Source: a bacterium
Lineage (GTDB): Bacteria; Patescibacteriota; JABMPQ01; JAUVWW01
Length of the DNA stretch: 64,000 nucleotides
Direction of reading: 5' to 3'
Assembly: GCA_030603885.1 (NCBI GenBank)
Contig: JAUVWW010000001.1
Location: 135,242 to 199,241, forward strand
Made by a program: the position numbers and the translations under genes. Each line of letters starts with the position of its first letter. The stretch's first letter is position 1. This document shows, piece after piece, positions 32,189-48,024 of this stretch. A model generated the notes under the pieces. It was not told the DNA's origin. It made no database searches and saw only the letters and a list, made by a program, of their open reading frames with translations.

Positions 32189-33607
32189 ATGATTGAAAGA
32201 AAAATTACAATCGATCCAAAAAGTGAAATTTTCCGTTGGGGTCCAGTTCCTGGAAAATTTATTTATACGAGCCATTTTGTTGTAGTTAATTTTCGATACT
32301 TTTGTAAAAAATGGGGAGGTCAATGGCCAAAAACTTTATTTTTATTTAAAAACAATAGGATGGTTTGGATTAATGAATATCCTTCCTTACGTTCTATGGG
32401 AAGGCAAGTCTTTAAAAATTGGATGCTTCCAGTTAAAAAAAGAAAACGAGTTTGGACTGACTGGCAAAAAGCTTTAAGGGAATTAATCTCACTTGAAAAA
32501 GATATCGATATTCTAAATCTAAAGAAGTTAAACAATCAAGAACTTTTAAAACTCTGGCAAGAGATAACCCAAAAATATATTAATTTTTGGGTTCCTTCAA
32601 CTGTACCTGAGTTAGGAAATTATGGCGCTGATTTTTGGTTAAAGGAACGCCTTAAAATATATATAAAAAGTGAGCAAGAGTTGCTAGATGCTTTAGAAAT
32701 TCTTACCGCTCTAACTAAACCCTCATTTTACCAAGAAGAAATAATAGATCTTTGTCGAGCAAAATCTTTAGAAGAGCATCAAAAGAAATATTTTTGGCTT
32801 AGAAATAGCTATGCTGGGGTTAAGACTTTATCCTTAGATTACTTTAGGAAAAGAAGGAAACAAATAAAGAATCCAAAAAGAGAAATAAAAAGAATTAAAA
32901 GAAATTTAGCATTGGCTAAGTTACGAAAAAGCAGATTAGCCAAGCGTTTAAAACTAGATCAACTAACTATAAAAATAGCCTGGAGTATAAGTGAAGGAAT
33001 GGTCTGGCAAGACCAAAGAAAAAAATACATCTTTATTACTATTTATTATCTTCACCAAATCTTGAAAGAAATAGGAAAACGCTTTCGCTATGCGTCTTAC
33101 GATTTAGAATATCTTTGGCCAAAAGAGATAGAAGAAATTATAAAAGGAAAAAATTTCAAAAAAATAATAAAGCAAAGAAAAAAAGGATTTGGAGTACATT
33201 TCTATAAATCAGTAAGAAATTTAAATCCAAAGGAAGTAAAAAAGTATTGGAAATCATTTCAAGAAAAACCCATCTTTAAAAAGATTAAGGTAATTCAAGG
33301 TCTACCAGTAAGCAAAGGCATAGCAAAAGGAAAAATTAGGATCCTAATGGATCCCTTTAAGATTTCTAAATTTAAAAAAGGAGAAATTCTAGTAGCTCCC
33401 ATGACTTCTCCAGAGTATATTTTTGTTATGCAAAAAGCCAAGGCAGTAATAACTGATGCCGGTGGTCTAACTTGCCATGCTGCCATTGTCTCCAGAGAAC
33501 TAAAAATTCCTTGTGTTGTTGGTACTAAAATCGCAACCAAAGTTTTGAAAGACGGAGATAAAGTAAAAGTAGACGCAAATAAAGGAATAATTAGAAAAAT
33601 AAAATGA
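32189..33607 (+). CDS. PEP-utilising-enzyme mobile (phosphohistidine swivel) domain protein, array paralog 1; divergent N-terminal domain
   Basis: C-terminal DAGGLTCHAAIVSRELKIPCVVGTKIATKVLKDGDKVKVDANKGIIRKI matches the PEP-utilisers His-domain signature (GG.TsHAAI.aRElGIP); N-domain carries the family motifs K.YFW..N.Y and W.D.RK...KEIGKRF. Confidence 0.75.
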   Translation: MIERKITIDPKSEIFRWGPVPGKFIYTSHFVVVNFRYFCKKWGGQWPKTLFLFKNNRMVWINEYPSLRSMGRQVFKNWMLPVKKRKRVWTDWQKALRELISLEKDIDILNLKKLNNQELLKLWQEITQKYINFWVPSTVPELGNYGADFWLKERLKIYIKSEQELLDALEILTALTKPSFYQEEIIDLCRAKSLEEHQKKYFWLRNSYAGVKTLSLDYFRKRRKQIKNPKREIKRIKRNLALAKLRKSRLAKRLKLDQLTIKIAWSISEGMVWQDQRKKYIFITIYYLHQILKEIGKRFRYASYDLEYLWPKEIEEIIKGKNFKKIIKQRKKGFGVHFYKSVRNLNPKEVKKYWKSFQEKPIFKKIKVIQGLPVSKGIAKGKIRILMDPFKISKFKKGEILVAPMTSPEYIFVMQKAKAVITDAGGLTCHAAIVSRELKIPCVVGTKIATKVLKDGDKVKVDANKGIIRKIK

Positions 33608-33611
33608 AATA

Positions 33612-35078
33612 ATGAAAATTAATTTTAGAAAAATTTTCTCAAGAAGACTTTATCGACAAGGTGGTGCTTGTATACCCTTTTTTATTGCTACACCATATTG
33701 TGGTGCTTTTACTAGAACTAAGGGCGGTTTTTTCTACAATAAAGGTGAACTAAATTATGGATATTTCTTTAAAGACAACGAGAAAAGAATTGCTAGTAGA
33801 GCATTAGCTAGGCAAGAAAAGGATAAAAATTATGTCAAAAAGCTTTTTAGAAAATGGAAAGATGTAGCAGATAAACAATTAAGCTTTGGTGATAAGATTA
33901 ATAAACTAGATTTTGCTAAACTTTCTTGGAAAGAACTAGTCAAATTACATCAGAAATTTGATAACTATTATTTTAGATTTTGGTATCATGCTGTGATTAT
34001 TGAAGCTTACGATCCTTGGGGTAATGAACTATTAAATGAGAAGATTCAAAAATACTATGGGAAAGCCTTACCCTTTGAAGTAGTAAAGACTATGACTGCC
34101 CCTTCGGAGATTTCTTATCTAAATCAAGAATATTTAGAACTATTTAATCTTGCAAAAATTGCTTTTAAAAACAAAATAGATTTAACAAAACCCAAAGAAT
34201 TTCTAAATTTTTATAAGAAGCTTGGAAAACACAAAGATAAATATTATTGGACAAATAATGGCTGGGTCAAAGTTTATAGATTGAATGAAATTTATTTCTT
34301 AAAAAGAATAAAGGCAATAATAAGAAATTTTTCCCAAGCCAGAAAAAAGGCTAAAAAGATAATTTTTGAACAAAAATACATCAAAAACAGAAAGAAAAAT
34401 TATTTAAGGAAATATCGATTTAGTAAAGAATTAATAAATATATTTTATTACTTTGAATTTTTGAATTTCTGGCGAGATTTTCGGAAGACATACGGATGCA
34501 AATATCACGATGTTTTGTACAGATTTCTTAAAGAATATTCTCGAAGAACTAATATTTCCATAAATTATTTAAAATCTTTAACTGCTCTGGAGATAGGCAA
34601 AATTAAAAATTATACAAAGAAGGATATTAAAAAATTGAAAGAAAGATGGGAATGTTGTTTTATGCTCTATCGGAGGCCAAAGAATTATTTATGGTTTATA
34701 GGAAAGGAGGCTGAAAAGTTGATTAAACTTTTAGATAAGTATTTTATTGGAGGGAAAAGAGAAATTAGAGGAAGCATTGGAAATAAAGGAAAAATTAAAG
34801 GAATGGTTAGACTTATTAAAACGATTAGTGATTTTAAAAAGATGAAAAAAGGTGATATTTTAGTTTCGGTGGCAACGAGAACAGAATATGCTCCGATTAT
34901 GAATAAAGCTAAGGCTATAATCACAGACGAAGGAGGAATAACCTGCCATGCAGCAATTGTTTCTCGGGAACTTAGTATCCCCTGCATTGTAGGGACTCAA
35001 ATTGCCACCAAAGTTTTAAAAGATGGAGACAAAGTAGAGGTAGACGCAAATAAAGGAATAATTAAAAAAATAAGATGA
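33612..35078 (+). CDS. PEP-utilising-enzyme swivel-domain protein, array paralog 2
   Basis: C-terminal DEGGITCHAAIVSRELSIPCIVGT...VDANKGIIKKI; divergent N-domain with YYW.NNGW motif. Confidence 0.75.
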   Translation: MKINFRKIFSRRLYRQGGACIPFFIATPYCGAFTRTKGGFFYNKGELNYGYFFKDNEKRIASRALARQEKDKNYVKKLFRKWKDVADKQLSFGDKINKLDFAKLSWKELVKLHQKFDNYYFRFWYHAVIIEAYDPWGNELLNEKIQKYYGKALPFEVVKTMTAPSEISYLNQEYLELFNLAKIAFKNKIDLTKPKEFLNFYKKLGKHKDKYYWTNNGWVKVYRLNEIYFLKRIKAIIRNFSQARKKAKKIIFEQKYIKNRKKNYLRKYRFSKELINIFYYFEFLNFWRDFRKTYGCKYHDVLYRFLKEYSRRTNISINYLKSLTALEIGKIKNYTKKDIKKLKERWECCFMLYRRPKNYLWFIGKEAEKLIKLLDKYFIGGKREIRGSIGNKGKIKGMVRLIKTISDFKKMKKGDILVSVATRTEYAPIMNKAKAIITDEGGITCHAAIVSRELSIPCIVGTQIATKVLKDGDKVEVDANKGIIKKIR

Positions 35079-36565
35079 AAATTATTGAAAACAATCTCAA
35101 TAAGAAATGGTATGATGAGTTTGCCGAAGCATCACCTATATTCGCTAGTTTACCAGCACACGCCATAGGAGATAAAATAATTTCTTTAAAACATCAATAT
35201 AAATGTGTACTTAATTTTTATTTCCAAAATAAAACACATTGGCTGACCTTGATTGAGGATCAAGATTTAATATCTGAAGAAATTTTAAATAACTATTTAA
35301 AAAATCGGAAATATTATAGACCTTGGTTTTTGAAATGGAAGAAAAAAACTAAAAGATTTAATTCCTTATTTAAAAAGATCAAAAAAACTGATTTATCTTT
35401 ATTATCCGAGAAAAAGTTATTGAGATTGCATCAAAAAGTTTGGAAAAGTCTAATAAAAACAAGGAAGATTGATATGCTTATAGACCCTTTTATTTTTGGT
35501 TCTGAAAGGAGAATGATTAAAGAGCTGAATAAATTTTGCACTTCTCATAATATTAGAAATGTGGGTCGTTTATATACGCTCTTAACCTCGCCAGAAAAAG
35601 AATCACTCATCAATAAATTTGAACTAAGTTTAATTAAATTAACTAAACGAATTAGAAAAAAGAAAATACCTAGATATTTACCGGATGAACCATCACAACT
35701 TTCTAAACTGCCCGCCATCAAAAACCATCTGGATAAATATTGTTGGATTAAAGGCAATTGGGGTAGAAGTAATGAATACACAGTCAGTATTCTTATTAAC
35801 GAAATAAAAGAATTATTGTCAAAAAATTTATCTCAACTTGAGCAACAGAAGAAAAAAATATTTTCTTTAAATAAAGAAAAAAGAAAGAAAATACTTAAGA
35901 AATTTAAATTTAATAAAATTATTAAAGCACTTTCGGATTTAACTGTCTTTTTCTCTTTTTGGCATGATTTAAGAAAAGAAAATGCCTTAAAATATATTTA
36001 TTATGAATCCTTATTTTTAAAAGAATTTTCTAAAAGATTTAAATTAAATTTTCAAGATTTGCATTTATTTGACATATCAGAAATTGAAAAAATATTAAAA
36101 AATAGAAAAAAATTTAATTTTGAAATCAAAAGAAGAAAAAAATTATTTTTAACAGTCCATGCTAACAATAGAATATATCTTTTATTTGGCTCACAAGTTA
36201 AAAAATATTTAGACAAAATTTTAGGCTTTGAAACAAAGAAAATTGATACTATAAAAGGTGTTAGTGCATTCAAGGGTAAAGTCAAAGGTAAGGTAAAGAT
36301 AATACATGAATATAAAGATTTTTATAAATTTAAAAAGGGAGATATTTTAGTAACGGGTATGACCAGACCAGAATTTATAGCAATTGCAAAAAAGGCTAAA
36401 GCTATTATTACTAATGAAGGAGGTATCACCTGCCATGCTGCCATTATAAGTAGAGAATTAGAGATTCCTTGTGTGGTAGCAACTAGAGTAGCAACTAAGA
36501 TACTAAAAGATGGAGATAGGGTAGAGGTGGATGCAAATAAAGGAATAATTAGAAAAATAAGATGA
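35075..36565 (+). CDS. PEP-utilising-enzyme swivel-domain protein, array paralog 3
   Basis: C-terminal NEGGITCHAAIISRELEIPCVVAT...VDANKGIIRKI; start overlaps upstream stop. Confidence 0.75.
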   Translation: MKIIENNLNKKWYDEFAEASPIFASLPAHAIGDKIISLKHQYKCVLNFYFQNKTHWLTLIEDQDLISEEILNNYLKNRKYYRPWFLKWKKKTKRFNSLFKKIKKTDLSLLSEKKLLRLHQKVWKSLIKTRKIDMLIDPFIFGSERRMIKELNKFCTSHNIRNVGRLYTLLTSPEKESLINKFELSLIKLTKRIRKKKIPRYLPDEPSQLSKLPAIKNHLDKYCWIKGNWGRSNEYTVSILINEIKELLSKNLSQLEQQKKKIFSLNKEKRKKILKKFKFNKIIKALSDLTVFFSFWHDLRKENALKYIYYESLFLKEFSKRFKLNFQDLHLFDISEIEKILKNRKKFNFEIKRRKKLFLTVHANNRIYLLFGSQVKKYLDKILGFETKKIDTIKGVSAFKGKVKGKVKIIHEYKDFYKFKKGDILVTGMTRPEFIAIAKKAKAIITNEGGITCHAAIISRELEIPCVVATRVATKILKDGDRVEVDANKGIIRKIR

Positions 36566-37203
36566 AACAAAAAAGAAAAACTCTCTATCTTTGGGATTTA
36601 GCTAATACTTTATTTCCCGAAGAATGGGATAAGGAAAAAACAGGCTTTGCTAATTATGATGAGTATGTTAAGTCTCTTAGTTATGATTTAGAGAAAATTT
36701 CTCCCTTAGAATATGAAAGATGCTACGAAAAGCCTTATAAAGAAGGACTCTTTAGATTAAAAATTGCCACTGGTTTCCGTAAGGTTCTCTCTTGGACAAA
36801 AAATAACGAGGCTTTTACTACTGGGGTAAAAGAGCAAATAGATTGGCGGGCAGAGTATCTTTTGAAAAAATACAGCTTTGATATAAGAAAATATCTTAAA
36901 AAAATCCATTCTACTTTTGACTTTGCTCCAACAAACAAAAAAACTAGAGAAATGATTATTTCTTTAGTTAAGAAAAAACTTCAGGAAGGATTTAACGAGA
37001 TTGTTTATACTGATGATAAGTTAGAAAATTGTTTATTTTTTCTCGAAGCAGTCAGGAAAACAAAAGAAAGGGTGGGAAATTTCCAACTTCGAATTTATAA
37101 TATTAAAAATGACGATAGAGGAATAAGAAATAAAGGAACCTATTGGGAAGCAGGAAATTTATACGATATAATGAGTAATGAAAAAAAAGAAAGAAAATCA
37201 TGA
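36562..37203 (+). CDS. array-embedded accessory protein, weak HAD-like N-terminal motif
   Basis: LYLWDLANTLF resembles HAD motif I (hhhhDxDxTL) but the second Asp is Ala; translationally coupled at both ends (ATGA overlaps). Confidence 0.3.
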   Translation: MKQKRKTLYLWDLANTLFPEEWDKEKTGFANYDEYVKSLSYDLEKISPLEYERCYEKPYKEGLFRLKIATGFRKVLSWTKNNEAFTTGVKEQIDWRAEYLLKKYSFDIRKYLKKIHSTFDFAPTNKKTREMIISLVKKKLQEGFNEIVYTDDKLENCLFFLEAVRKTKERVGNFQLRIYNIKNDDRGIRNKGTYWEAGNLYDIMSNEKKERKS

Positions 37204-38774
37204 AATATCAAAAGGGACTAATACAAAAAAATCTAAGAATACTTCAAGAAAAAGAATGGTATCATCAACGCTTTGATGGTTGCCCTCAGTTTATTTTACT
37301 TATTTCCGAAGCTGAGATGAGACCAGAAAGAAGAAAGTTAAAAGGCGGAAACTTCACTAGCCATATTGTATTTTTTAAGAATGATAGAGTGGATTGGTAT
37401 ATTGACCAAGAAGACATAAAAAGAATTACTAACCTGGTAATTAAAGCTAGTTTAAAAAACCAAAAAATTAGCAAGGATTTAATTAAAAAATGGAAAAGGG
37501 ACGAAAAGATCTTTTATGATTACTGCAGGAGATTGAAGAATATAAATCTAGATATGTTATCTAATGAAAGGTTAAAACATTTATATCATGATTTTGTTGA
37601 AGTCTATTGTAAAACTGTAACAAACAGTTCTGTTATTGATGGATTTGCTTTAGGAACAGATCGGATTATTCAAGAAAAAATAACAAATTTTTTAAAGAGT
37701 AAAAGACTACAAAAATATCAGTATCGCTATTTTACCAGGCTTACTGCTCCTACTAGTCAGTCCTTTATTAATGAAGCGGAAATTTCTCTCCTAAAGGTTG
37801 TTCAGTTAATAAATAGGACTAAAGCTATAAAAAGATTAGTATTACGAGAGAAAAGTATAGATCAGATTTTAAAAGAGTTAAAACAATTTAAGAGAATATA
37901 CCAAGCATTAAAACAACATCAAAAGAGCTATTTCTGGAGTAAAAATAATTACGTGGACGATAATGTGCTTGATCTAAACCATTTTACAAAGGAAATAAAA
38001 GGGATACTTAGAGGAAAGGTTAATATCACAAAAGAAATAAATCGGATCTCAAGCACGCCCATTAAAAATAAGATATCAAAAGATAAATTAATTAAAAGAT
38101 TAAAACCACCAAGAATAATTAGAAATCTAATAACCATTTCAGGTAATTTTACAGATTGGCAAGACGAAAGAAAGAGAAAGACTTATTGGTTAACCCATTG
38201 CTTAAGTCTTATTATTAACGAGATTGCTAAGAGATTCGACTATTCTCTACATGGAATAAAGTATTTAGTTCCGCCAGAGGTAGAAAATCTATTTACAAAA
38301 AAGAGGAAAATTACTCTAGCAGAAACTAGGGCAAGAATTAGAAAATCGCTTTTTTATCAAAAAGGGCAAAATTATGAGATATTGTCTGGAAATAAAGCTG
38401 AGAAACTAAGAAAGGTAATTTTACGGAAAAAGAGAGAGGAGGTTATTCATGACTTTCGAGGTCTTCCAGCTTGCCGAGGAAAAGTAAGAGGTAAGGTCAA
38501 GATAATTAAAAGTGCTAGAGAAGCTGGAAAAGTAGAGAAAGGTAATATCTTGGTGGCTGTGATGACACGTCCAGACTATATAGTAGGAATTAAAAAGGCA
38601 GCTGCCATAGTAACTGATGAAGGTGGAGTTACTTGTCATGCAGCTATAGTAAGTCGAGAACTTAGTATCCCTTGTGTGATAGGTACTAAAATCGCTACCA
38701 AAGTCTTAAAAGATGGAGATTACATAGATGTCAATGCTAGTCACGGAATAATAACTATTATAAAAAGAAAATAA
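37200..38774 (+). CDS. PEP-utilising-enzyme swivel-domain protein, array paralog 4
   Basis: C-terminal DEGGVTCHAAIVSRELSIPCVIGTKIATKVLKDGD; N-domain motifs YFWSKNNY and WQDERK...NEIAKRF. Confidence 0.75.
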   Translation: MKYQKGLIQKNLRILQEKEWYHQRFDGCPQFILLISEAEMRPERRKLKGGNFTSHIVFFKNDRVDWYIDQEDIKRITNLVIKASLKNQKISKDLIKKWKRDEKIFYDYCRRLKNINLDMLSNERLKHLYHDFVEVYCKTVTNSSVIDGFALGTDRIIQEKITNFLKSKRLQKYQYRYFTRLTAPTSQSFINEAEISLLKVVQLINRTKAIKRLVLREKSIDQILKELKQFKRIYQALKQHQKSYFWSKNNYVDDNVLDLNHFTKEIKGILRGKVNITKEINRISSTPIKNKISKDKLIKRLKPPRIIRNLITISGNFTDWQDERKRKTYWLTHCLSLIINEIAKRFDYSLHGIKYLVPPEVENLFTKKRKITLAETRARIRKSLFYQKGQNYEILSGNKAEKLRKVILRKKREEVIHDFRGLPACRGKVRGKVKIIKSAREAGKVEKGNILVAVMTRPDYIVGIKKAAAIVTDEGGVTCHAAIVSRELSIPCVIGTKIATKVLKDGDYIDVNASHGIITIIKRK

Positions 38775-38775
38775 T

Positions 38776-40296
38776 ATGATAGAGCCAAAATATTTTGTTC
38801 AAAGAATGGATGGGGTACTTTTGCTCTCTTTTCTTGCTTCTGAAGCAGAAGTGGTTAATGTTAAAAAAGATTTTGGCATGGGGAAGCCTTTCTGTCCTGG
38901 TGTTAATGCTCACAAGAGGATTAATTATTTTGGTTATGTTTGGAAGGACATACACAAACAAGCAGAATTTATTATTAGAAAAATAAAGAAAAATCCTCGT
39001 TTTTTATCTGATCTTCTTAGAATGTGGAAAGAGAGAGTAAAGAGATTAAGAAATTTTGAAGAAAGAATTTTAAAGACAAGTTTGAAAAATATTTCTGACA
39101 AAGAACTTGTAGCTATTTTTCAGCAGTTAATCAATCTTTATCAAGAAGAATATAGTCCAGCTCTTTTGTGTGATCCTTTTGGTCTCCATACAGAGAAAAT
39201 TATTACTGATAAGCTTAGAAAGATTGTAGAAAGGAGAGAAGAGCCAAGAAAATTTGCTAAATATTTAGAGATTTTAACTACACCTGCAAAAAGATCCTTT
39301 GCTAATGAAGAAGAACTCGATCTTTTAATACTAGCTCAGAAAATAAAGAGGAATAAAAAATTAGCAAGTATCTTGAAGAAAGATGTAAGAAAAGCAAAAA
39401 AAGGGTTAGTTAAACATCCTTACTTAGAAAAACTCATTAGGAAACATATGAAGAAATTTTTCTGGATTGAAAACAGTTATGCCCAGGGAATAAAATTAAA
39501 AGAAGGTTATTTCTTAAAAAAAATTAGAAGGTATTTAAAAGAGAGTATTAATCTCTCAAAGAAAATCAAAGAACTTAAAAATTTGTCTAAAAATTACAGA
39601 AGAAAAAAGAAAACCCTAATTAAAAAGCTTAATTTAGATAAAAAATTTAGAAAATTATTAGAATGGACAGAAGTTTTTGGCTATCTTCACGATGCTAGAA
39701 AAGGAGTGATGATGGAGGCACATTATTATATTACCTTACTGCTCAAAGAAATCGGTAGAAGACTTAGATTAACTCTTCAGGAAATGTACTATACCGATCA
39801 TCACAAGATTGAAGAAATGCTTCTTAAGAAAAAAATCAACAAAAAACTTCTTCGAGAGAGAATAAGAATGTGTACTTACCTAATTTGGCCAACAAAATAT
39901 AGAATTTTAACAGGCAGAAAAGCAGAGTGGTGGCACAAAGAACTTTTAGGAGAAAGAAAAATGGTTATTGGTGAAATCAAAGGAGTTAGTGCTTCAAGTG
40001 GGGTAACGGTAGGTAAAGCCAAAATAGTAAAAGATGTTAAAGATGGATATAAAATAAAGAAAGGAGATATTCTAGTTACTGGTATGACCCGTCCTCACTG
40101 GATGCCTTTTATTAGAAAAGCTAAAGCCCTAGTCACTGATGAAGGAGGAATCACCTGTCATGCGGCCATTGTAGCCAGAGAGCTTGGCATTCCTTGTATC
40201 ATTGCTACAAAAGTGGCTACCAAAATATTGAATGATGGATATTTAGTCGAAGTGAACACTAATCATAATAGAGTGAAGATTCTAAAGAGAGTTTAA
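38776..40296 (+). CDS. PEP-utilising-enzyme swivel-domain protein, array paralog 5
   Basis: C-terminal DEGGITCHAAIVARELGIPCIIATKVATKIL; N-domain homologous over its length to paralog 6. Confidence 0.75.
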   Translation: MIEPKYFVQRMDGVLLLSFLASEAEVVNVKKDFGMGKPFCPGVNAHKRINYFGYVWKDIHKQAEFIIRKIKKNPRFLSDLLRMWKERVKRLRNFEERILKTSLKNISDKELVAIFQQLINLYQEEYSPALLCDPFGLHTEKIITDKLRKIVERREEPRKFAKYLEILTTPAKRSFANEEELDLLILAQKIKRNKKLASILKKDVRKAKKGLVKHPYLEKLIRKHMKKFFWIENSYAQGIKLKEGYFLKKIRRYLKESINLSKKIKELKNLSKNYRRKKKTLIKKLNLDKKFRKLLEWTEVFGYLHDARKGVMMEAHYYITLLLKEIGRRLRLTLQEMYYTDHHKIEEMLLKKKINKKLLRERIRMCTYLIWPTKYRILTGRKAEWWHKELLGERKMVIGEIKGVSASSGVTVGKAKIVKDVKDGYKIKKGDILVTGMTRPHWMPFIRKAKALVTDEGGITCHAAIVARELGIPCIIATKVATKILNDGYLVEVNTNHNRVKILKRV

Positions 40297-40300
40297 AAAT

Positions 40301-41770
40301 ATGGCTAGACAAACAAAATATTTTGACCAAATGAGAGACGGTTTTCCATTTACTGCTATAACTTCTACTAGAGCTCAAATGGTTAATTTAAAAAGTGATA
40401 CAGGAATTTTTAAGCCGGAGTTTATTTGTATATTCAGAAATAAAACTATCCGCTTTATTTATCCTTGGGCCGAATTACACAAAATAGGTAAAGAGATAAA
40501 TGATCTTTTGTTAAAAAACCAAAAGCTTATAGACGAACTTATTCAGACTTGGCAAAGGAAATACCAGCTTTTAAATATATTTTGCCAAGACATAGATAGG
40601 TTAAATTTAAAAAACCTATCAGATAGGGGGCTGGTTAGCCTCTTAGACAACTTGCTGAACATTTTCCAAAATCAATTTAGCATTCCTTGTCTGGTAGAAT
40701 TTTTTAGTTTACATAATGAGCAAGTGATTATTAAAAAACTAATAAAGATATTAAATAAACGAAATGAACTTAAATTATTGCCTGATTATCTTACAACTTT
40801 AATCGTGCCAACCAAGTATTCCTTCAACAACGAAGAGGAACTAGATCTTTTAAAAATAGCTATAATGATAAAGCAAAAAAGAAATAAAAAATTAATTGAG
40901 GAAAGACTAAGACAACATGTAGATAATTACTTTTGGATTGAAAATAACTATGCTCAAGGAATAAAACTTAAAAAAAGCTATTTTGTAAAGAGAATAAATA
41001 GGCTAATTAAAAAGGATAACTTAAGAAAGAAATTAAAAAACATAAAAGACTTGTCTAATAAAAATAAACAAAGAAAAAGAAGATTAATCCGAAAACTAAG
41101 ATTAGATAAAAAGACTATTGAGCTGTTGAACTTAATAGATATTTTTACTTATATTCAGGACAGGCGTAAAGCATCTCAAATGAAAACCTTTTATTATCTT
41201 CAAGAAATGTTAAAAGAAATTGGAAGAAGATTAAAGTTGAGTCAAGAGGAAATGAATTATGCTGTTCATTACGAAATTCCAGAGATGTTACTAAAAAGAA
41301 AAGTAGATGGAAGGATGTTAAAAGAAAGAATGAAATATTGTATCTCTATAGAAACATATAGAAATGATAAATATAAATACAAGATTTTAACAGGGGGGAG
41401 AGCTAAAAAGTTTGAAGAGAAGTTATTTGGAAAAGAAGCTAAGAAAAAGATATCTGACCTACAAGGCATCTGTGCTTCTCAAGGTGTTGTGGTAGGCAAA
41501 GCGAAAATTATTAAGACAATAAAAGATTTCTCCAAGATAAGAATTGGTGACATATTAGTCACTTCTATGACTACTCCCGAGTTCGTTCCTATATTAAAGA
41601 AAGTTAAAGGTATAGTTACTGACGAAGGAGGAATTACTTGCCACGCTGCCATTATTTCTAGAGAATTAGCTATCCCTTGTGTAGTTGGCACTAATATTGC
41701 TACTAAAATTTTAAAAGACGAAGAACTGATAGAAATCCGAGCCCATCATGGAATCGTAAAAAGGATTTAA
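40301..41770 (+). CDS. PEP-utilising-enzyme swivel-domain protein, array paralog 6
   Basis: C-terminal DEGGITCHAAIISRELAIPCVVGTNIATKIL; YFWIENNYAQGIKLKK motif shared with paralog 5. Confidence 0.75.
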   Translation: MARQTKYFDQMRDGFPFTAITSTRAQMVNLKSDTGIFKPEFICIFRNKTIRFIYPWAELHKIGKEINDLLLKNQKLIDELIQTWQRKYQLLNIFCQDIDRLNLKNLSDRGLVSLLDNLLNIFQNQFSIPCLVEFFSLHNEQVIIKKLIKILNKRNELKLLPDYLTTLIVPTKYSFNNEEELDLLKIAIMIKQKRNKKLIEERLRQHVDNYFWIENNYAQGIKLKKSYFVKRINRLIKKDNLRKKLKNIKDLSNKNKQRKRRLIRKLRLDKKTIELLNLIDIFTYIQDRRKASQMKTFYYLQEMLKEIGRRLKLSQEEMNYAVHYEIPEMLLKRKVDGRMLKERMKYCISIETYRNDKYKYKILTGGRAKKFEEKLFGKEAKKKISDLQGICASQGVVVGKAKIIKTIKDFSKIRIGDILVTSMTTPEFVPILKKVKGIVTDEGGITCHAAIISRELAIPCVVGTNIATKILKDEELIEIRAHHGIVKRI

Positions 41771-41872
41771 TTATCTTAAACTTCATACTAAAAAGGGTAT
41801 TCCAGATAATTCCTCAGACATGAGTCGCAAAAGAAGTTTTAAGATGATAAGATATAATTGATAATTAAATAA

Positions 41873-43405
41873 TTGTTAACCAAAAAATATATGCCAGCAG
41901 CAGTAACAAGATCAGGCCCATGGAGAATAAAGCCATCAGGTAAATTACCTATCTTTTTAAGGTTCATGATCAACTCGAGTTTTGATCACAAAATCGCCAA
42001 TAAAGTAGGTTTTAAACATCATATTGTTAATCGGGTTTATCTTAATCATATGATTTACTGGCCAGCTAAAGAATATGATCTATTTGAAAAGGAGATTATT
42101 AATAATGCCAAAAATAAAAAGGGCTGGTTTGAAAACCTCTGCAAAAGAGAGCTTAGAAAATGTGAGAAATTGTATAAATTAGGTCTAGAACTAAAAAGAA
42201 TGGATTGGTCTAAGAAATCTAACCAGTATATGAAAGAGGTATTAACTAGTTTATTAGAGAAATACAGGTATGTTGCTTGCCCGTGGTATACCCAATATCC
42301 TTTAGATGAATATTTTGAAAGTACGATAGAAGAACAACTTGTTAAACATATACCGGCTAGCCACCCAGATTTCAGAAAATTTGTCTTAATTTTTACTGAT
42401 CCAAAAGAAATGACCGAGGTTAGTGAGGAAAAATGGAAGTTAATGAAAATAGCTAAAGAATTTAAGAAAAGAGGGGAGAAATTATCTAAATTATCCAAAT
42501 GGGCAAAAGAGAAAATAGAACGTCATTTAGATAAATTTGCCTATATTAATAGGGGACTGGCTACTAGTAAGCCATACACATTCAAGGACATGGTTGATCG
42601 AATCAGAGAGGCTTGGAAAGATAAAAAAGGATTAAATACACTAATTTATGATAGCTCACCTAAAAAAATAGAAGAAGATTATAAATGGGCTCTAGAAAAG
42701 ATCAAACCAAAACCAAAATTTAAAAAAATTATCACTCAAGCTAGATTACACTCCTACACTAGAAATCGTCGCGTAGAAGCCTTTTTTATGGCAGATTATG
42801 GAGCTAGTTTCATGTATCACGAGATTGCTAAAAGAGCTCACTTTAACCCAAACTGGATTATGGAAGTTTCTGTCCCAGAAATGTTTGGTGCTTTGGAAAA
42901 TAAACCTTTGCCTGATAAAAGGGAAATGCAGAGAAGATTTAAAAACTATGCTATGATTGTTCGCAATGCCAAGACCAAGATGATTGTTGATCCAAAAGAA
43001 ATCAAGAAGTTAGAAAAGAGATATTATGTCAAAGTTAGCAAGGTTAGAGAGATCCATGGAAGAATGGCTTGTCTAGGAGGTATTATTAAAGGTAAAGCAA
43101 GGGTGTGTTTAGATAAAAAAGAGATTGGTAAGGTTAAAAGAGGTGACATTTTGATAGCACAGTTTACTACACCAGACTTTGTACCAGCCATGGAAAAAGC
43201 AGCTGCTATTGTTGCTGATCAAGGTGGTCTGTCATCCCATGCTGCCATTGTTTCCCGAGAGCTGGGCGTACCCTGTGTAATTGCCACAGAAAATGCTACC
43301 CGAGTAATCAAGGATAATGATTTGTTAGAGGTCGATGCTCGAAAAGGAGTAGTTAAAATTTTAAGAAGAGTAAAAAGGAGGAAAAACTATGAGAAAATTT
43401 GTTAA
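41873..43405 (+). CDS. PEP-utilising-enzyme swivel-domain protein, array paralog 7 (most divergent N-domain)
   Basis: C-terminal DQGGLSSHAAIVSRELGVPCVIAT (Ser-Ser-His variant closest to the canonical TSHAAI of PpsA/EI). Confidence 0.7.
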   Translation: MLTKKYMPAAVTRSGPWRIKPSGKLPIFLRFMINSSFDHKIANKVGFKHHIVNRVYLNHMIYWPAKEYDLFEKEIINNAKNKKGWFENLCKRELRKCEKLYKLGLELKRMDWSKKSNQYMKEVLTSLLEKYRYVACPWYTQYPLDEYFESTIEEQLVKHIPASHPDFRKFVLIFTDPKEMTEVSEEKWKLMKIAKEFKKRGEKLSKLSKWAKEKIERHLDKFAYINRGLATSKPYTFKDMVDRIREAWKDKKGLNTLIYDSSPKKIEEDYKWALEKIKPKPKFKKIITQARLHSYTRNRRVEAFFMADYGASFMYHEIAKRAHFNPNWIMEVSVPEMFGALENKPLPDKREMQRRFKNYAMIVRNAKTKMIVDPKEIKKLEKRYYVKVSKVREIHGRMACLGGIIKGKARVCLDKKEIGKVKRGDILIAQFTTPDFVPAMEKAAAIVADQGGLSSHAAIVSRELGVPCVIATENATRVIKDNDLLEVDARKGVVKILRRVKRRKNYEKIC

Positions 43406-44414
43406 AAGTGAAGAGATAACGCCCGAAATAAGAGAACAAAGAAAGCCGCGATTGGAACTTTGGATTACTCGTCATGCTAATCGGGCCCCAACAGGCGAGT
43501 TGACGCCAGAAGGAATAGCTACTGTAAGAGCTAAAGGGGAAAAGGTTGATGCTGAAGTTCTAAAAGGATATTCTAGTTTTGAGAAGAGTGATCGGACCTA
43601 TAAAACTCTTCAAAAAATTAGTAAAGAAAGCAAAATTAAGTCTCCATCAACAGAGGGTTTATATCAAACTCGACGGAGAGTAGGTCTCTATTATGATGTA
43701 GTCGGTCCCTTGCAATCGCGAATCAAAGCTCAGACTAAATTGATTAATGAGATGGTGAAAAAAGATTACCCCGATTATGACCCTGAGTCTAAGGATCCAA
43801 AATGGGCTAAAATCCGTGAAAGATATCAGCCCATTGGCATTCGTAATGTAATAGCTGATAAGGAAATATCTCATGTATTAGCTATGGGCGCAGCCTATCA
43901 ATTTTTCAAAATGGCAGAGATTGGTGAGAGATATATTGCTCGGCGAAAAAGTGCTCTTAAAAGAGGTGAAAAAGGTGCTAGACCAATAGAGAAAGATATT
44001 ATTTTAAATGAGGGAACGCACGGTGGTTTTATTGATTTAATGCTTAAGAAAACTATGATTAGGGTTAAGCCAGATGGAAACGAAAAGATAGGTTTTGACC
44101 TCAGCCGGGATAAAAAGGGTCTGATTGTCTTCGAGAAAGTAATGGGAGATGTGATAAGACCAACAGAGTCTATTAAGACAGGCTATCCAGTGGGTGAAAA
44201 GTTACCAGAGAGATTACCTATTTCTTTTGAGCAGGATCGTTTTAAAGAAGAGAAGTGCTATATAAGTATACCTAGAGTTAAATTATTAGCAGAACAATTT
44301 AGAGCTTATCTTGAACAGTTAGGAAAATGGAATAAAGGAGAAATAGACGAAAAAGAACTCGTTTTAGTAATCAATAGATTAAGAGAAGAGTTCGAGAAAG
44401 AGAAGAAATCGTAA
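43389..44414 (+). CDS. histidine phosphatase superfamily protein (histidine-acid-phosphatase-like RHxxRxP motif)
   Basis: ITRHANRAPTGELTPEG matches the RHGxRxP catalytic motif of branch-2 histidine phosphatases (compare AppA SRHGVRAPT); start overlaps the end of paralog 7 by 17 nt. Confidence 0.5.
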   Translation: MRKFVKSEEITPEIREQRKPRLELWITRHANRAPTGELTPEGIATVRAKGEKVDAEVLKGYSSFEKSDRTYKTLQKISKESKIKSPSTEGLYQTRRRVGLYYDVVGPLQSRIKAQTKLINEMVKKDYPDYDPESKDPKWAKIRERYQPIGIRNVIADKEISHVLAMGAAYQFFKMAEIGERYIARRKSALKRGEKGARPIEKDIILNEGTHGGFIDLMLKKTMIRVKPDGNEKIGFDLSRDKKGLIVFEKVMGDVIRPTESIKTGYPVGEKLPERLPISFEQDRFKEEKCYISIPRVKLLAEQFRAYLEQLGKWNKGEIDEKELVLVINRLREEFEKEKKS

Positions 44415-44480
44415 TTTAATAGAAATATATCTAAAGAGGGAGGTTTTACTTGCCATTGTTGTAGGAATTAAAAATAAAAA

Positions 44481-44515
44481 CAGCCAAAATTCGGATAAAC
44501 CATGGCTGTTTTTTT
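44481..44515 (+). terminator. candidate rho-independent terminator (CAGCCA...TGGCTG stem followed by TTTTTTT)
   Basis: 6-bp perfect inverted repeat with long loop followed by a 7-T run, downstream of the 43389..44414 gene. Confidence 0.45.
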
Positions 44516-44561
44516 AATATAATTTATCTAAAAGCAGTCTGTCAAACAGTCTGCCTTAATT

Positions 44562-44618: not shown

Positions 44619-45137
44619 ATGACATACAATCTAAAATCTAAAATTCGCTCTATCCTTGATTGGCCTAAAAAAGGTATTGTTTTTCGAGATATCACACCTG
44701 TCTTGGAAAATGCAAAATTGTTTCGATATCTGATTGATCAGATGGGTAAGCCTTACATTAAAAAGAAAATTGATATGGTAGTAGGTATTGATGCTCGTGG
44801 TTTTATTTTAGCCGCAGCCTTGGCTTACAAATTAAAAACAGGCCTGGGCATAGTGCGTAAAAGTGGTAAATTACCTCATAAAACTATAAAGAAAAAGTAC
44901 TCTTTAGAATATGCTTCTAATGTTTTGGAAATGCATCACGATACTATTAAACCTGGACAGAAGGTTTTGTTAGTTGATGATTTATTAGCTACAGGAGGAA
45001 CAATGAAAGCTACGGTTGATCTGGTCAAGAAATTAGGTGGAAAAGTGGTTGGAATCGACTTCTTTATCGAGCTAAAAGACCTAAAAGGAAGAAAAAAGCT
45101 AAAAGGATACCCTGTGAAATCACTTATTAATTTTTAA
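44619..45137 (+). CDS. apt: adenine phosphoribosyltransferase
   Basis: PRPP-binding motif VLLVDDLLATGGT; 172 aa. Confidence 0.85.
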   Translation: MTYNLKSKIRSILDWPKKGIVFRDITPVLENAKLFRYLIDQMGKPYIKKKIDMVVGIDARGFILAAALAYKLKTGLGIVRKSGKLPHKTIKKKYSLEYASNVLEMHHDTIKPGQKVLLVDDLLATGGTMKATVDLVKKLGGKVVGIDFFIELKDLKGRKKLKGYPVKSLINF

Positions 45138-45151
45138 AGAAGGTAATAAAT

Positions 45152-46087: not shown

Positions 46088-46093
46088 ATTTAT

Positions 46094-47146
46094 ATGGAGA
46101 AATTATTCAGTATATCAATAATTGATTTTAGTCTAATAATACTAGAATCATGGGATACTGGTTATTTTAACGAGATGAGGAGGCAACTTAATTTTGGATT
46201 CCCTCGTGTTTTCTTTTTTAGGACAAAGGCTGGTGTAAATATAATGCGTCCCGAGAAAGACCAGAGATCTTTTGAAAAATACATTCTCAGGGAAATTAAA
46301 AGCGATCCCAAATATTTATCTATCCGCTTGAAAAAAATTTTCAGGTATCTTGACGAGCTAAATAAGTCAAAAAAGAAAAAACTCAAAAAGGCAAGTAGTA
46401 AAGACCTATGGAATTGTGCTCAAAAAACATTCAAAATAATATATAAAATTCTACCAATGTATGTTGTGGTCTACTGGTTACTAAGTAGATCATATTTAAG
46501 AGAGTATGTGGATTATAAAGAAATGGAAAAAGCAAGAGTTAGAAGCGAGGGTTATTATGATATAGGAGATAAAATATTTAAAAAGATTTTTAAGAGTGCT
46601 ATAGCTGGCAGAAAGCAACTTTTAAATTATTTTAAAGTGATAAAGTTTGAAGAATTAAAAAAACTTTTGCTTAAAAAACAATTTCCTAAATTATCTGAAT
46701 TACGCAAGAGAAAAATAAATTATTTTCTGTTTAAAAACAATTTTTTATCTGGAAAACTAGAGCTAGATCGAACTCTAAAACGTTATGGTTTCAAATATCA
46801 ATCACCTAAACCAACTCTGGAAGATAGTGTGATCTATGGTCAGACTGCTACAAGAGGTAAGGCTAAAGGACATGTTAAAGTGATTTTAGGTAAAGATGAA
46901 CTCAAAAAAATCCGTAAAGGTGATGTGCTAGTAACTGCAACGACCTCTCCAGATTTTATCCCAGCCATGAAAATTTCAGCTGCTATAGTTACTGACTATG
47001 GTGGAATAGTGTGTCATGCTGCTATTGTTTCTCGAGAACTAAGAGTCCCTTGTATAATAGGCACTAAAATCGCTACCAAAGTTCTAAAAGACGGAGATAG
47101 GGTAGAGGTGGATGCCACAAAAGGAATAGTTAAAAAGATAAAATGA
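46094..47146 (+). CDS. PEP-utilising-enzyme swivel-domain protein, array paralog 8 (short N-domain), adjacent partner of the ATP-grasp gene
   Basis: C-terminal DYGGIVCHAAIVSRELRVPCIIGTKIATKVLKDGDRVEVDATKGIVKKIK; starts 6 nt after the ATP-grasp stop. Confidence 0.75.
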   Translation: MEKLFSISIIDFSLIILESWDTGYFNEMRRQLNFGFPRVFFFRTKAGVNIMRPEKDQRSFEKYILREIKSDPKYLSIRLKKIFRYLDELNKSKKKKLKKASSKDLWNCAQKTFKIIYKILPMYVVVYWLLSRSYLREYVDYKEMEKARVRSEGYYDIGDKIFKKIFKSAIAGRKQLLNYFKVIKFEELKKLLLKKQFPKLSELRKRKINYFLFKNNFLSGKLELDRTLKRYGFKYQSPKPTLEDSVIYGQTATRGKAKGHVKVILGKDELKKIRKGDVLVTATTSPDFIPAMKISAAIVTDYGGIVCHAAIVSRELRVPCIIGTKIATKVLKDGDRVEVDATKGIVKKIK

Positions 47147-47994: not shown

Positions 47995-48024
47995 CTAATA
48001 ACTTAATAATTAATACAAAAACCT

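What the first reader, a model, noticed from the sequence alone, without database searches (positions are those of the whole stretch)
43389..44414. Histidine-acid-phosphatase-like protein embedded in and translationally coupled to the swivel-domain array
The motif ITRHANRAPTGE matches the RHGxRxP catalytic signature of branch-2 histidine phosphatases, where the His is the phospho-accepting nucleophile. The gene overlaps the end of paralog 7 by 17 nt. A phospho-histidine enzyme phosphatase inside a phospho-histidine relay locus suggests either product dephosphorylation (a phosphorylate-then-hydrolyse cycle) or resetting of the phosphorylated carrier.
Basis: partly seen in the sequence, partly recalled or inferred. 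Interest (0 to 1): 0.55.

Follow-up and report, generated by a model that had tools for sequence, protein, structure and literature searches.

The report
Divergent histidine phosphatase partnering split dikinases
The gene encodes a real but previously unannotated, very divergent member of the histidine-phosphatase enzyme superfamily. It is found only in tiny "candidate phyla radiation" bacteria and almost always sits beside genes of a split ATP-driven phosphorylating machine, which suggests it removes or passes on the phosphate that machine installs.

Summary
ORF 43389-44414 (341 aa) overlaps the upstream swivel-domain gene by 17 nt, has a strong Shine-Dalgarno site, and carries RHANRAP, which occurs once in all six frames (0.05 expected).

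The single protein matches nothing in Pfam, NCBIfam or PDB. A 60-member family profile does match branch-1 histidine phosphatases in PDB (E 1e-7), and 30 of 60 members hit Pfam His_Phos_1. R28, H29, R69 and H211 are invariant in 60 of 60. An AlphaFold model (pLDDT 95) finds only histidine-phosphatase-superfamily structures; branch-2 acid phosphatases rank first, with low TM (0.3-0.45).

It is therefore a hybrid lineage. It has a branch-2-like RH[AG]x[RK]xP motif and a large helical cap, but branch-1-like sequence, no HD motif and no signal peptide. The proton donor is unresolved (E/D216 or E260).

The family is known only from Patescibacteria. In every informative locus but one it abuts swivel subunits of two-component small-molecule dikinases (HpeHI/CreHI/PpsAB type), often with a HAD hydrolase and the ATP-grasp subunit.

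Best guess: a phosphomonoesterase acting on a dikinase product. A SixA-like phospho-swivel phosphatase is not excluded. I rate it a new variant of a known kind, of moderate interest.

The parts
43389..44414 (+). Gene for the 341-aa divergent histidine-phosphatase-superfamily protein
   Evidence: ORF; family of 73 clusters; fold; profile hits to His_Phos_1 structures
43464..43499 (+). ITRHANRAPTGE. R28-H29 is the predicted nucleophile motif at the end of strand beta1, and R32 is the branch-2-like basic residue.
   Evidence: R28 and H29 60/60; position 30 A 32/G 21; R32 R 52/K 8; P34 36/60; unique in window
43593..43595 (+). R69 codon, the second phosphate-pocket arginine (SDRTYKT)
   Evidence: 60/60 invariant; aligned to the S..RA.eTA arginine of PhoE and dPGM structures
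44019..44024 (+). H211-G212 (THGG). This is the second catalytic histidine, with no HD dipeptide.
   Evidence: H211 60/60; G212 48/60, never D; lies at the end of strand 204-210 in the model
44034..44036 (+). D216 (E in 56/60 homologs), a candidate general acid
   Evidence: One of only two columns that are >=80% acidic; position in the active site not verified
44166..44168 (+). E260 within the GG..PxES motif, a candidate general acid
   Evidence: E 58/60; G253 58/60; G254 54/60; P258 51/60; position in the active site not verified
43375..43381 (+). Shine-Dalgarno AAGGAGG, 7 nt upstream of the ATG, inside the 3' end of paralog 7
   Evidence: Sequence
44479..44516 (+). Terminator-like hairpin (8-bp G+C-containing stem, 16-nt loop) followed by U7
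   Evidence: Fold -12.2 kcal/mol, z -3.6; missed by the pattern scanner, whose loop limit is 3-8 nt
41873..43405 (+). Paralog 7 (p7), a swivel-domain dikinase subunit. It is the conserved upstream partner of the phosphatase gene.
   Evidence: PF00391; 119 orthologs at 50-78% identity; a phosphatase-family gene follows it in 4/4 blindly chosen ortholog loci
32189..41770 (+). Paralogs 1-6 of the swivel-subunit array, plus the conserved 213-aa unknown ORF (36562-37203)
   Evidence: PF00391 in each paralog; catalytic GG[IL]TCHAAI motif retained; 22-45% pairwise identity
45152..46087 (+). The only ATP-grasp (PPDK_N) subunit found in the window, the presumed common charger of all swivel subunits
   Evidence: PF01326 E 5e-101; NCBIfam PEP synthase/RPH N-terminal region
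46094..47146 (+). Eighth, shorter swivel paralog (350 aa), in the operon apt-PPDK_N-p8-MTAP-AhcY
   Evidence: PF00391; neighbours identified

Best explanation
The gene encodes a cytoplasmic, catalytically competent enzyme of a previously unannotated, Patescibacteria-restricted lineage of the histidine phosphatase superfamily. By analogy with the rest of that superfamily, H29 attacks a phosphoryl group held by R28, R32, R69 and H211, forming a phospho-His29 intermediate that is then hydrolysed. An acid from the C-terminal part (E/D216 or E260) would replace the usual HD-Asp or post-beta3 Glu.

It is a dedicated partner of a split ATP-grasp/swivel small-molecule dikinase system. One ATP-grasp subunit charges the His of many swivel subunits, and each subunit passes the phosphate to its own small-molecule substrate.

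Its most likely job is to hydrolyse a phosphomonoester made by that system, in particular by the conserved paralog p7. That would complete a phosphorylate, use-or-trap, dephosphorylate route, or would set the steady-state level of a phosphorylated metabolite.

Shown: fold, catalytic residues and synteny. Inferred: the substrate, the general acid and the direction of phosphate flow.
For: Fold and catalytic core:
- The profile of 60 homologs hits branch-1 histidine phosphatases in PDB (3r7a 1.2e-7, PhoE 1e-6, dPGMs, PGAM5), aligning RH and R69 with their catalytic residues.
- 30/60 members hit PF00300.
- The AF2 model has pLDDT 95 and pTM 0.92, and all 50 top Foldseek hits belong to the superfamily.
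- R28, H29, R69 and H211 are invariant in 60/60.
- Two near-invariant acidic positions are present, 216 (E 56, D 2 of 60) and E260 (58/60).

Link to the dikinase system:
- The family gene abuts a swivel-subunit gene in L001 and L002, L018, L021, L034 and L107, L110-L113, L114, and all 12 metagenome loci that have flanks. In L115 it sits between a HAD gene and PPDK_N.
- A family gene follows p7 in 4/4 p7-ortholog loci chosen without looking for it.

Small-molecule reading:
- A 90-residue helical cap (residues 102-191) is present, and the best structural matches are small-molecule/nucleotide acid phosphatases.
- Other small-molecule phosphohydrolase-type genes (HAD, HD, NUDIX) sit in the same arrays.
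- One p7 ortholog is fused to a HAD domain.
- There is a precedent: the two-component dikinase HpeHI operon encodes a phosphatase (HpeD) that dephosphorylates a later intermediate (PMC9618137, PMC12167813).
Against: - No substrate is identified.
- Phosphatase subclades do not track the clade of the adjacent swivel subunit. Clade 2 pairs with p7, with type-B and with a third type. This fits a target common to all paralogs better than a paralog-specific product.
- There is one phosphatase gene for eight dikinase subunits.
- A kinase and phosphatase acting on the same group would be futile unless another step intervenes, and the minimal two-gene cassettes (L018, L034, L107) encode no such step.
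- TM-scores to known structures are low (0.3-0.45).
Confidence: 0.42

Rival explanations
1. SixA-like protein phosphohistidine phosphatase. It removes the phosphate from the conserved phospho-His of the swivel subunits (or from the pyrophosphoryl/phospho-His intermediate), resetting or throttling the whole array.
For: - SixA is a member of the same superfamily and dephosphorylates the phosphocarrier NPr and Ndk (PMC7948535, PMC12934123). SixA structures appear, weakly, among the profile hits (4hbz, E 0.5).
- One phosphatase serves up to eight paralogs whose swivel motif is nearly identical.
- Phosphatase clades do not co-diversify with the substrate-domain clade of the neighbour.
- The gene is frequently adjacent to PPDK_N.
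- The associated HAD proteins have a variable Asp+2, which would matter less for a good leaving group such as a P-N bond. This last point is my inference.
Against: - The protein is 341 aa with a 90-residue cap and an extra C-terminal sheet, unlike the minimal ~160-186 aa SixA.
- Hydrolysing carrier~P would waste ATP.
- No interaction evidence exists; a complex prediction could not be run.
- The best structural neighbours are small-molecule enzymes.
Confidence: 0.25
2. Phosphomutase or phosphotransferase rather than hydrolase. Phospho-His29 is kept and passed to a second acceptor (dPGM-like chemistry), possibly primed by the swivel phospho-His. The kinase and this enzyme together would move a phosphate, for example on a pentose or glycerate phosphate.
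For: - The profile's best sequence relatives include cofactor-dependent mutases.
- The minimal cassettes sit in carbon and nucleotide operons: GAPDH-phosphatase-swivel in L107, and prs-phosphatase-swivel-AMP-phosphorylase-like with RuBisCO nearby in L034.
- The window's ATP-grasp gene lies in an apt/MTAP/AhcY operon.
Against: - The branch-1 Glu after beta3 is not conserved: position 98 has E 12/D 4 of 60 and position 103 is 63% acidic.
- No alignment extends beyond the RH...R segment to mutases.
- The metabolic neighbours differ from locus to locus.
- Other loci place the array next to type-IV-secretion-like genes instead.
Confidence: 0.12
3. General nucleotide or AMP phosphatase for nucleoside salvage. 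It would be only loosely tied to the dikinases, for example by disposing of the AMP they release.
For: - The top Foldseek hits are acid phosphatases crystallised with 5'-AMP or 3'-AMP (7doq, 3it3).
- Dikinases release AMP (PMC4844700 abstract).
- NUDIX and HD genes occur in the arrays.
- Adenine-salvage genes are neighbours.
Against: - TM-scores are low and sequence identity is 8-11%, so ligand specificity cannot be transferred.
- AMP hydrolysis next to apt would be futile.
- The very tight, near-universal adjacency to swivel subunits argues for a more specific link.
Confidence: 0.1
4. Chance motif in an unrelated protein, or an inactive pseudo-enzyme.
For: The single window protein has no hit in Pfam, NCBIfam or PDB.
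Against: The four catalytic-core residues are invariant in 60/60, the profile and fold evidence agree, and the motif is unique in the window with 0.05 expected.
Confidence: 0.02

Closest known systems
Histidine phosphatase superfamily, branch 1 (Pfam PF00300: PhoE, dPGM, PGAM5, TIGAR, RosC, Rv2419c)
   Same: RH motif at the end of beta1, second Arg at the start of the following helix (S..R..T), and T-H-G after beta4. Statistically significant profile-sequence matches (E 1e-7 to 1e-3). Half of the family members touch PF00300.
   Different: The window protein itself scores nothing against PF00300. The general-acid Glu after beta3 is not conserved. There is a basic residue at H+3, a 90-residue three-helix insertion and an extra C-terminal beta/alpha module. 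TM is only 0.2-0.47.
Branch 2 histidine acid phosphatases (PF00328: Legionella major acid phosphatase 7doq/5cdh, Francisella HAP 3it1, prostatic acid phosphatase 1nd5)
   Same: An RH[GA]x[RK]xP-type motif, an SDRT-like second-Arg context, and a large helical cap domain. These are the top-ranked Foldseek matches over the full length (E 1.6e-5, TM 0.42-0.45).
   Different: No HD dipeptide (H211-G212, D never seen at 212). No Pfam His_Phos_2 hit in 60 members. Profile E-values to these proteins are only 0.1-0.2. The protein is cytoplasmic with no signal peptide, whereas branch-2 enzymes are typically secreted, periplasmic or lysosomal (my own knowledge).
SixA phosphohistidine phosphatase
   Same: Same superfamily. 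It acts on phospho-His carriers of a PEP-dependent phosphotransfer system whose Enzyme I contains the same kind of swivel domain (PMC7948535, PMC6282199).
   Different: SixA is a minimal ~160-186 aa domain without a cap. The sequence match is only E 0.5. No evidence here for a protein substrate.
Phosphatases of two-component dikinase pathways (HpeD with HpeHI; dephosphorylation step of the Cre pathway)
   Same: A phosphohydrolase encoded with a split ATP-grasp plus (substrate-binding + swivel) dikinase, removing the phosphate after it has served its purpose (PMC9618137, PMC12167813).
   Different: HpeD is a HAD-type (NagD-like) enzyme, not a histidine phosphatase. Those operons contain the intervening carboxylase or oxidase steps. 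They occur in Actinobacteria and Proteobacteria aromatic catabolism, with one dikinase rather than an eight-paralog array.
6-phosphofructo-2-kinase/fructose-2,6-bisphosphatase (my own knowledge)
   Same: A kinase coupled to a histidine-phosphatase-superfamily phosphatase acting on the same metabolite to set its level.
   Different: It is a fused eukaryotic enzyme with a P-loop kinase and a canonical branch-1 phosphatase with the Glu acid. There is no swivel chemistry.

Membership tests
Histidine phosphatase superfamily (clan level) | N-terminal RHG-type motif whose His is the nucleophile, at the C-terminal end of strand beta1 | tested here: met
   R28-H29 invariant in 60/60; position 30 is A 32/G 21. 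The model has strand 21-28 ending at the motif. Aligned to the RHG of PhoE/dPGM.
Histidine phosphatase superfamily (clan level) | Additional Arg and second His completing the phosphate pocket | tested here: met
   R69 and H211 invariant in 60/60. R69 aligns with the catalytic Arg of PDB branch-1 enzymes, and H211 aligns (weak segment) with PhoE THG.
Histidine phosphatase superfamily (clan level) | Shared alpha/beta fold | tested here: met
   AF2 pLDDT 95, pTM 0.92. All 50 best Foldseek PDB hits are superfamily members, probability ~1.0, but TM is only 0.2-0.47. The shallow-alignment model gave a similar result: 41 of its 50 top hits, all but rank 42, were superfamily members.
Histidine phosphatase superfamily (clan level) | General acid (Asp/Glu) near the phosphate | tested here: inconclusive
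   Neither canonical position is used. Only positions 216 (E/D, 97%) and 260 (E/D, 98%) are conserved acids. Their 3D position could not be read because model coordinates are not exposed.
Branch 2 (histidine acid phosphatases, PF00328) | RHGxRxP signature | tested here: met
   Met in a relaxed form: R-H-[A32/G21]-x-[R52/K8]-x-[P36/60]. The window sequence is RHANRAP.
Branch 2 (histidine acid phosphatases, PF00328) | HD dipeptide (second His followed by the proton-donor Asp) | tested here: not met
   H211 is followed by G in 48/60, and by S, L, A, R or Q in the listed remainder; D is not among the residues seen.
Branch 2 (histidine acid phosphatases, PF00328) | Match to the family profile | tested here: not met
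   PF00328 is not among the 25 families most often matched by the 60 members, even at E <= 10. Profile E-values to branch-2 PDB chains are 0.1-2.5.
Branch 1 (PF00300) | Match to the family profile at the curated threshold | tested here: inconclusive
   The window protein has no hit at E <= 10. 30/60 relatives hit, best 1.1e-8. The family profile reaches branch-1 structures at 1e-7. This indicates a remote homolog, not a member by Pfam's own criterion.
Branch 1 (PF00300) | Catalytic Glu shortly after strand beta3 | tested here: not met
   Positions 96-103 are variable. Position 98 has E 12/D 4 of 60, position 99 has D 12/E 8, and position 103 is acidic in 38/60.
SixA-type phosphohistidine phosphatases | Minimal ~160-aa core without a cap; activity on phospho-His proteins | tested here: not met
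   Architecture not met: 341 aa with helical insert 102-191 and a C-terminal module. SixA hit E 0.5. Activity is not testable with these tools.
Cofactor-dependent phosphoglycerate mutase | Substrate-binding and catalytic residues beyond the core quartet, including the Glu after beta3 | tested here: not met
   Alignment to dPGMs covers only residues ~20-108. The Glu is not conserved. Other dPGM residues were not individually tested.
Two-component small-molecule dikinase system (HpeHI/CreHI/PpsAB type), for the surrounding locus | Separate ATP-grasp (PPDK_N) protein plus a protein carrying an RPH-like substrate region and a C-terminal swivel His domain with the catalytic His | tested here: met
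   PF01326-only protein at 45152-46087. Eight proteins have C-terminal PF00391 and NCBIfam alignments to the C-terminal halves of RPH/PigC/RedH. The GG[IL][TS][CS]HAAI motif is retained in all. Enzyme activity is not testable here.

The most novel reading that the evidence does not exclude
The protein is the founding member of a third lineage of the histidine phosphatase superfamily that works directly on the phospho-His swivel carriers of a CPR-wide, multi-paralog split-dikinase system. It would either strip their phosphate (a SixA-like governor of a whole dikinase array) or accept it on H29 and pass it on (a His-to-His relay feeding a mutase or transferase). This would be the first dedicated phosphohistidine-directed regulator or relay partner described for PEP-synthase/RPH-type dikinases.
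Probability: 0.25. Interest if true: 0.75.

Novelty: new variant of a known kind. Interest (0 to 1): 0.55.

Why it matters
1. It adds a family-level lineage to the histidine phosphatase superfamily that current Pfam and NCBIfam models do not annotate. The family comprises 73 clusters at 50% identity. It mixes branch-1 sequence features with a branch-2-like motif and cap, and it must use a non-canonical proton donor.

2. Its near-obligate linkage to swivel subunits exposes a conserved, apparently undescribed system in Patescibacteria. One ATP-grasp subunit is encoded with up to eight diverged acceptor subunits and assorted phosphohydrolases, taking about 15 kb of a very small genome.

3. These organisms depend on scavenged metabolites. 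A phosphorylate-and-release (or trap-and-release) battery would therefore bear on how they acquire or detoxify host-derived compounds.

4. The kinase/phosphatase pairing gives a concrete handle for finding the substrates.

Tried and rejected
- Single-sequence searches gave nothing: Pfam and NCBIfam at E <= 1, PDB phmmer at E <= 10, and the 6-sequence profile against PDB. Only the 60-sequence profile worked.
With the 6-member alignment it found no relative in GTDB species genomes.
- A hand-made degenerate DNA pattern for RHAERxPxGEL gave 105 stretches. Only 6 were true relatives, all Patescibacteria; the rest were chance matches, mostly in high-GC genomes.
- PADLOC defence models gave no hit for the phosphatase, p1, p7, p8 or orf213, and only a negligible one for PPDK_N. 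A known defence system is therefore not supported.
- The pattern-based terminator scan missed the hairpin after the gene because its loop is 16 nt. Direct folding recovered it.
- The p7 ortholog profile against PDB matched only the swivel part, so the substrate domain stays unassigned.
- Looking for informative fusions of the phosphatase family, the longer members P0073 and P0068 carry unrelated C-terminal extensions with no swivel domain.
- Literature searches for CPR, dikinase and histidine phosphatase combinations found nothing relevant. The CreHI paper (PMC4813557) is not held.
- A phosphoglycerate-mutase reading was rejected as the primary explanation because the mutase-specific Glu is not conserved and the alignment is restricted to the RH...R segment.
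- I could not locate the general acid or test a complex with the swivel domain.
Full report
**1. The observation**

- The ORF 43389-44414 (+) exists and encodes 341 aa.
- The upstream ORF (41873-43405) is the seventh of seven consecutive 472-524 aa proteins with a C-terminal PEP-utilizers "swivel" domain, PF00391. It ends at 43405, giving the stated 17-nt overlap.
- AAGGAGG lies 7 nt before the ATG. Homologs start at the same position, with M1 aligned in 58/60.
- ITRHANRAPTGE is residues 26-37. RH[GA]x[RK]xP occurs once in the six-frame translation of the 64-kb window, against 0.05 expected.
- A hairpin followed by U7 sits 65 nt after the stop codon (z -3.6). The gene therefore probably closes the array operon that begins at 32189.

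**2. What the protein is**

- On its own the sequence matches nothing in Pfam or NCBIfam at E <= 1, nor in PDB.
- The word-indexed search found five relatives, one of them from Candidatus Jacksonbacteria.
- An exhaustive profile search found 73 clusters at 50% identity.
- In an alignment of 60 full-length members, R28, H29, G42, R69 and H211 are invariant. S63, T73, E/D216, G253, G254 and E260 are nearly so.
- The profile of this alignment hits branch-1 histidine phosphatases in PDB: 3r7a at 1.2e-7, PhoE 1ebb at 1e-6, and several dPGMs, PGAM5, TIGAR and Sts. The RH motif and R69 align to their catalytic residues, and H211 aligns to PhoE's T-H-G. Branch-2 acid phosphatases score only 0.1-0.2.
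- Thirty of the 60 members individually touch Pfam His_Phos_1 (best 1.1e-8). His_Phos_2 is not among the listed families.
- With the 60-sequence alignment, AlphaFold gives pLDDT 95 and pTM 0.92. The 6-sequence model gave pLDDT 79.
- All 50 best Foldseek PDB hits of the good model belong to the histidine phosphatase superfamily. Branch-2 enzymes rank first over the full length: Legionella major acid phosphatase, and prostatic and rat acid phosphatase. RosC, TIGAR, PGAMs and Rv2419c follow. TM-scores are only 0.2-0.47 (one search is similar).
- The model places R28-H29 at the end of strand 21-28, R69 at the start of helix 69-81, and H211 at the end of strand 204-210. To my knowledge of the fold, these are the canonical positions.
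- Between them lies a 90-residue three-helix insertion (102-191). After the core comes an extra beta-rich segment plus two long helices.

**3. Which branch**

The protein does not fit either branch.

- Branch-2-like features: a basic residue at H+3 (R 52, K 8 of 60), Pro at H+5 in 36/60, an SDRT context for the second Arg, and a large cap.
- Branch-1-like features: the detectable sequence similarity and T-H-G-G after beta4.
- Missing from both: the branch-2 HD dipeptide (H211 is followed by G, and never by D among the residues seen) and the branch-1 Glu after beta3 (positions 96-103 are variable).
- The only conserved acids are position 216 (E or D in 97%) and position 260 (E or D in 98%, within a GG..PxES motif). 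One of them presumably supplies the proton, but I could not check this without coordinates.
- No member has an N-terminal hydrophobic segment, so the protein is cytoplasmic.

**4. Context in the window**

- The seven upstream paralogs and an eighth (46094-47146) all keep the catalytic GG[IL][TS][CS]HAAI motif. They are 22-45% identical to each other.
- NCBIfam aligns their C-terminal halves with the corresponding parts of RPH, PigC and RedH.
- The only ATP-grasp (PPDK_N) protein found is 45152-46087.
- This architecture matches the two-component small-molecule dikinases HpeHI, CreHI and PpsAB. In those, one subunit corresponds to the RPH ATP-grasp domain and the other to the RIF-binding plus swivel domains (PMC12167813).
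- PADLOC finds no defence-system match.

**5. Conservation of the linkage**

- The family gene sits next to a swivel-subunit gene in L001 and L002.
- The same holds in four GTDB Patescibacteria genomes: Veblenbacteria L018, L021, Kuenenbacteria L034, and L107.
- It also holds in L114, and in all 12 metagenome loci with any flank. In L115 the gene lies between a HAD gene and PPDK_N.
- The one exception is L091. There a short 197-aa fragment lies beside type IV pilus genes near a contig end.
- Paralog 7 is special. It is the most divergent paralog in the window (22-24% identity), yet it has 119 orthologs at 50-78% identity across Patescibacteria.
- In four p7-ortholog loci chosen only for contig length, a phosphatase-family gene follows p7 either directly or after a HAD gene. 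PPDK_N follows within 2 kb in three of the four.
- One p7 ortholog carries a C-terminal HAD fusion.
- All named sources are Patescibacteria, and every name given by a source is "hypothetical protein".

**6. Mechanism**

Shown: the fold, the intact catalytic quartet, and obligate synteny with the split dikinase. Inferred: everything about the substrate.

The reading I favour (about 0.4) is a phosphomonoesterase acting on a dikinase product.
- Support: the large cap and small-molecule-type structural neighbours.
- Support: other small-molecule phosphohydrolase-type genes (HAD, HD, NUDIX) in the arrays.
- Support: the p7-HAD fusion.
- Support: the HpeHI/HpeD precedent for phosphorylate, transform, dephosphorylate (PMC9618137).

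The main rival (about 0.25) is a SixA-like phosphatase of the swivel phospho-His (PMC7948535, PMC12934123).
- It is favoured by one phosphatase serving eight nearly identical swivel motifs.
- It is also favoured by phosphatase subclades not tracking the clade of the adjacent swivel subunit.

Lesser rivals are a mutase or phosphotransferase (suggested by GAPDH, prs, AMP-phosphorylase-like and RuBisCO neighbours in L107 and L034) and a nucleotide phosphatase.

**7. Verdict**

- The "branch 2" label and the "relay" description need correction.
- The function is still open.
- This is a new variant of a known kind, of moderate interest in itself. Its interest rises because it flags a conserved, undescribed split-dikinase array in CPR bacteria.

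Noticed in passing
window 32189-43405 and 45152-47146: Eight diverged paralogs (22-45% identity) of a swivel-His dikinase acceptor subunit are encoded with a single ATP-grasp (PPDK_N) subunit. This looks like an array of two-component small-molecule dikinases of the HpeHI/CreHI/PpsAB type. Similar arrays of 4-5 or more paralogs occur in L001, L110, L111/L125, L112 and L118. Two literature searches found no description of it.
   Followed up: partly
window 41873-43405 (p7): p7 is the most divergent paralog in the window, yet it has 119 orthologs at 50-78% identity across many Patescibacteria classes. It has an S-S-H catalytic motif (like CreH/PpsA) where the other paralogs have T-C-H. Its ~350-aa N-terminal domain, rich in invariant aromatic and charged residues, matches nothing in PDB by sequence.
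   Followed up: partly
window 36562-37203: A 213-aa ORF with no Pfam, NCBIfam or PADLOC match is a conserved component of the arrays. Homologs (E 1e-57 to 1e-90) occur inside the arrays of L001, L111/L125, L112, L113 and L118. It may be an accessory subunit.
   Followed up: partly
window 44619-49284: A tight operon links the ATP-grasp subunit to adenine/adenosine salvage: apt, PPDK_N, short swivel paralog p8, MTAP (4-nt overlap with p8), AhcY. In L034 the phosphatase-swivel pair lies between prs and an AMP-phosphorylase-like gene, with a RuBisCO large subunit nearby. In L107 it directly follows GAPDH.
   Followed up: partly
L113 3402-5492 (P0170); HAD genes in L001, L002, L110, L112, L113, L115: One p7 ortholog is fused to a C-terminal HAD domain, and free HAD genes often sit between p7 and the phosphatase gene. 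In these HADs the Asp+2 of motif I is not conserved (D, G, D, D, N, A). That is unusual for phosphatases acting on ordinary phosphoesters.
   Followed up: partly
L001 14187-20020; L110 14288-15485; L111 11869-14998; window 26311-28785: The arrays repeatedly lie next to type-IV-secretion-like genes (PrgI, TraC-like, VirB4/TraG-type ATPases). The window has a TraG/VirD4-like 824-aa protein 3.4 kb upstream of the array. An unannotated 420-460 aa protein follows PPDK_N in L001, L110 and L111.
   Followed up: no
L001 66-1013: A second, very distant paralog of the phosphatase family (315 aa, canonical RHG, E 5e-8 to the family HMM) sits at the other end of the same array. No second copy exists in the window.
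   Followed up: partly
L091 6252-7396: In one Parcubacteria contig the family gene is only a 197-aa fragment (E 2e-52) preceded by a 179-aa ORF, beside PilB/PilM type IV pilus genes and without a swivel gene in the 6.7 kb upstream. It may be a decayed copy. This is the only exception to the synteny.
   Followed up: partly
L113 2253-3339; L114 4045-4707; L001 2478-5705; L002 4620-5492: The arrays are interspersed with other small hydrolase and transferase genes: NUDIX, HD, metallo-beta-lactamase fold, alpha/beta hydrolase and a methyltransferase. This suggests that each dikinase may have its own follow-up enzyme.
   Followed up: no
window 44479-44516: The terminator-like hairpin after the gene has a 16-nt loop, so the consensus scanner did not report it. 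A promoter-like site (11/12 match) on the minus strand overlaps the same intergenic region (44545-44516).
   Followed up: yes
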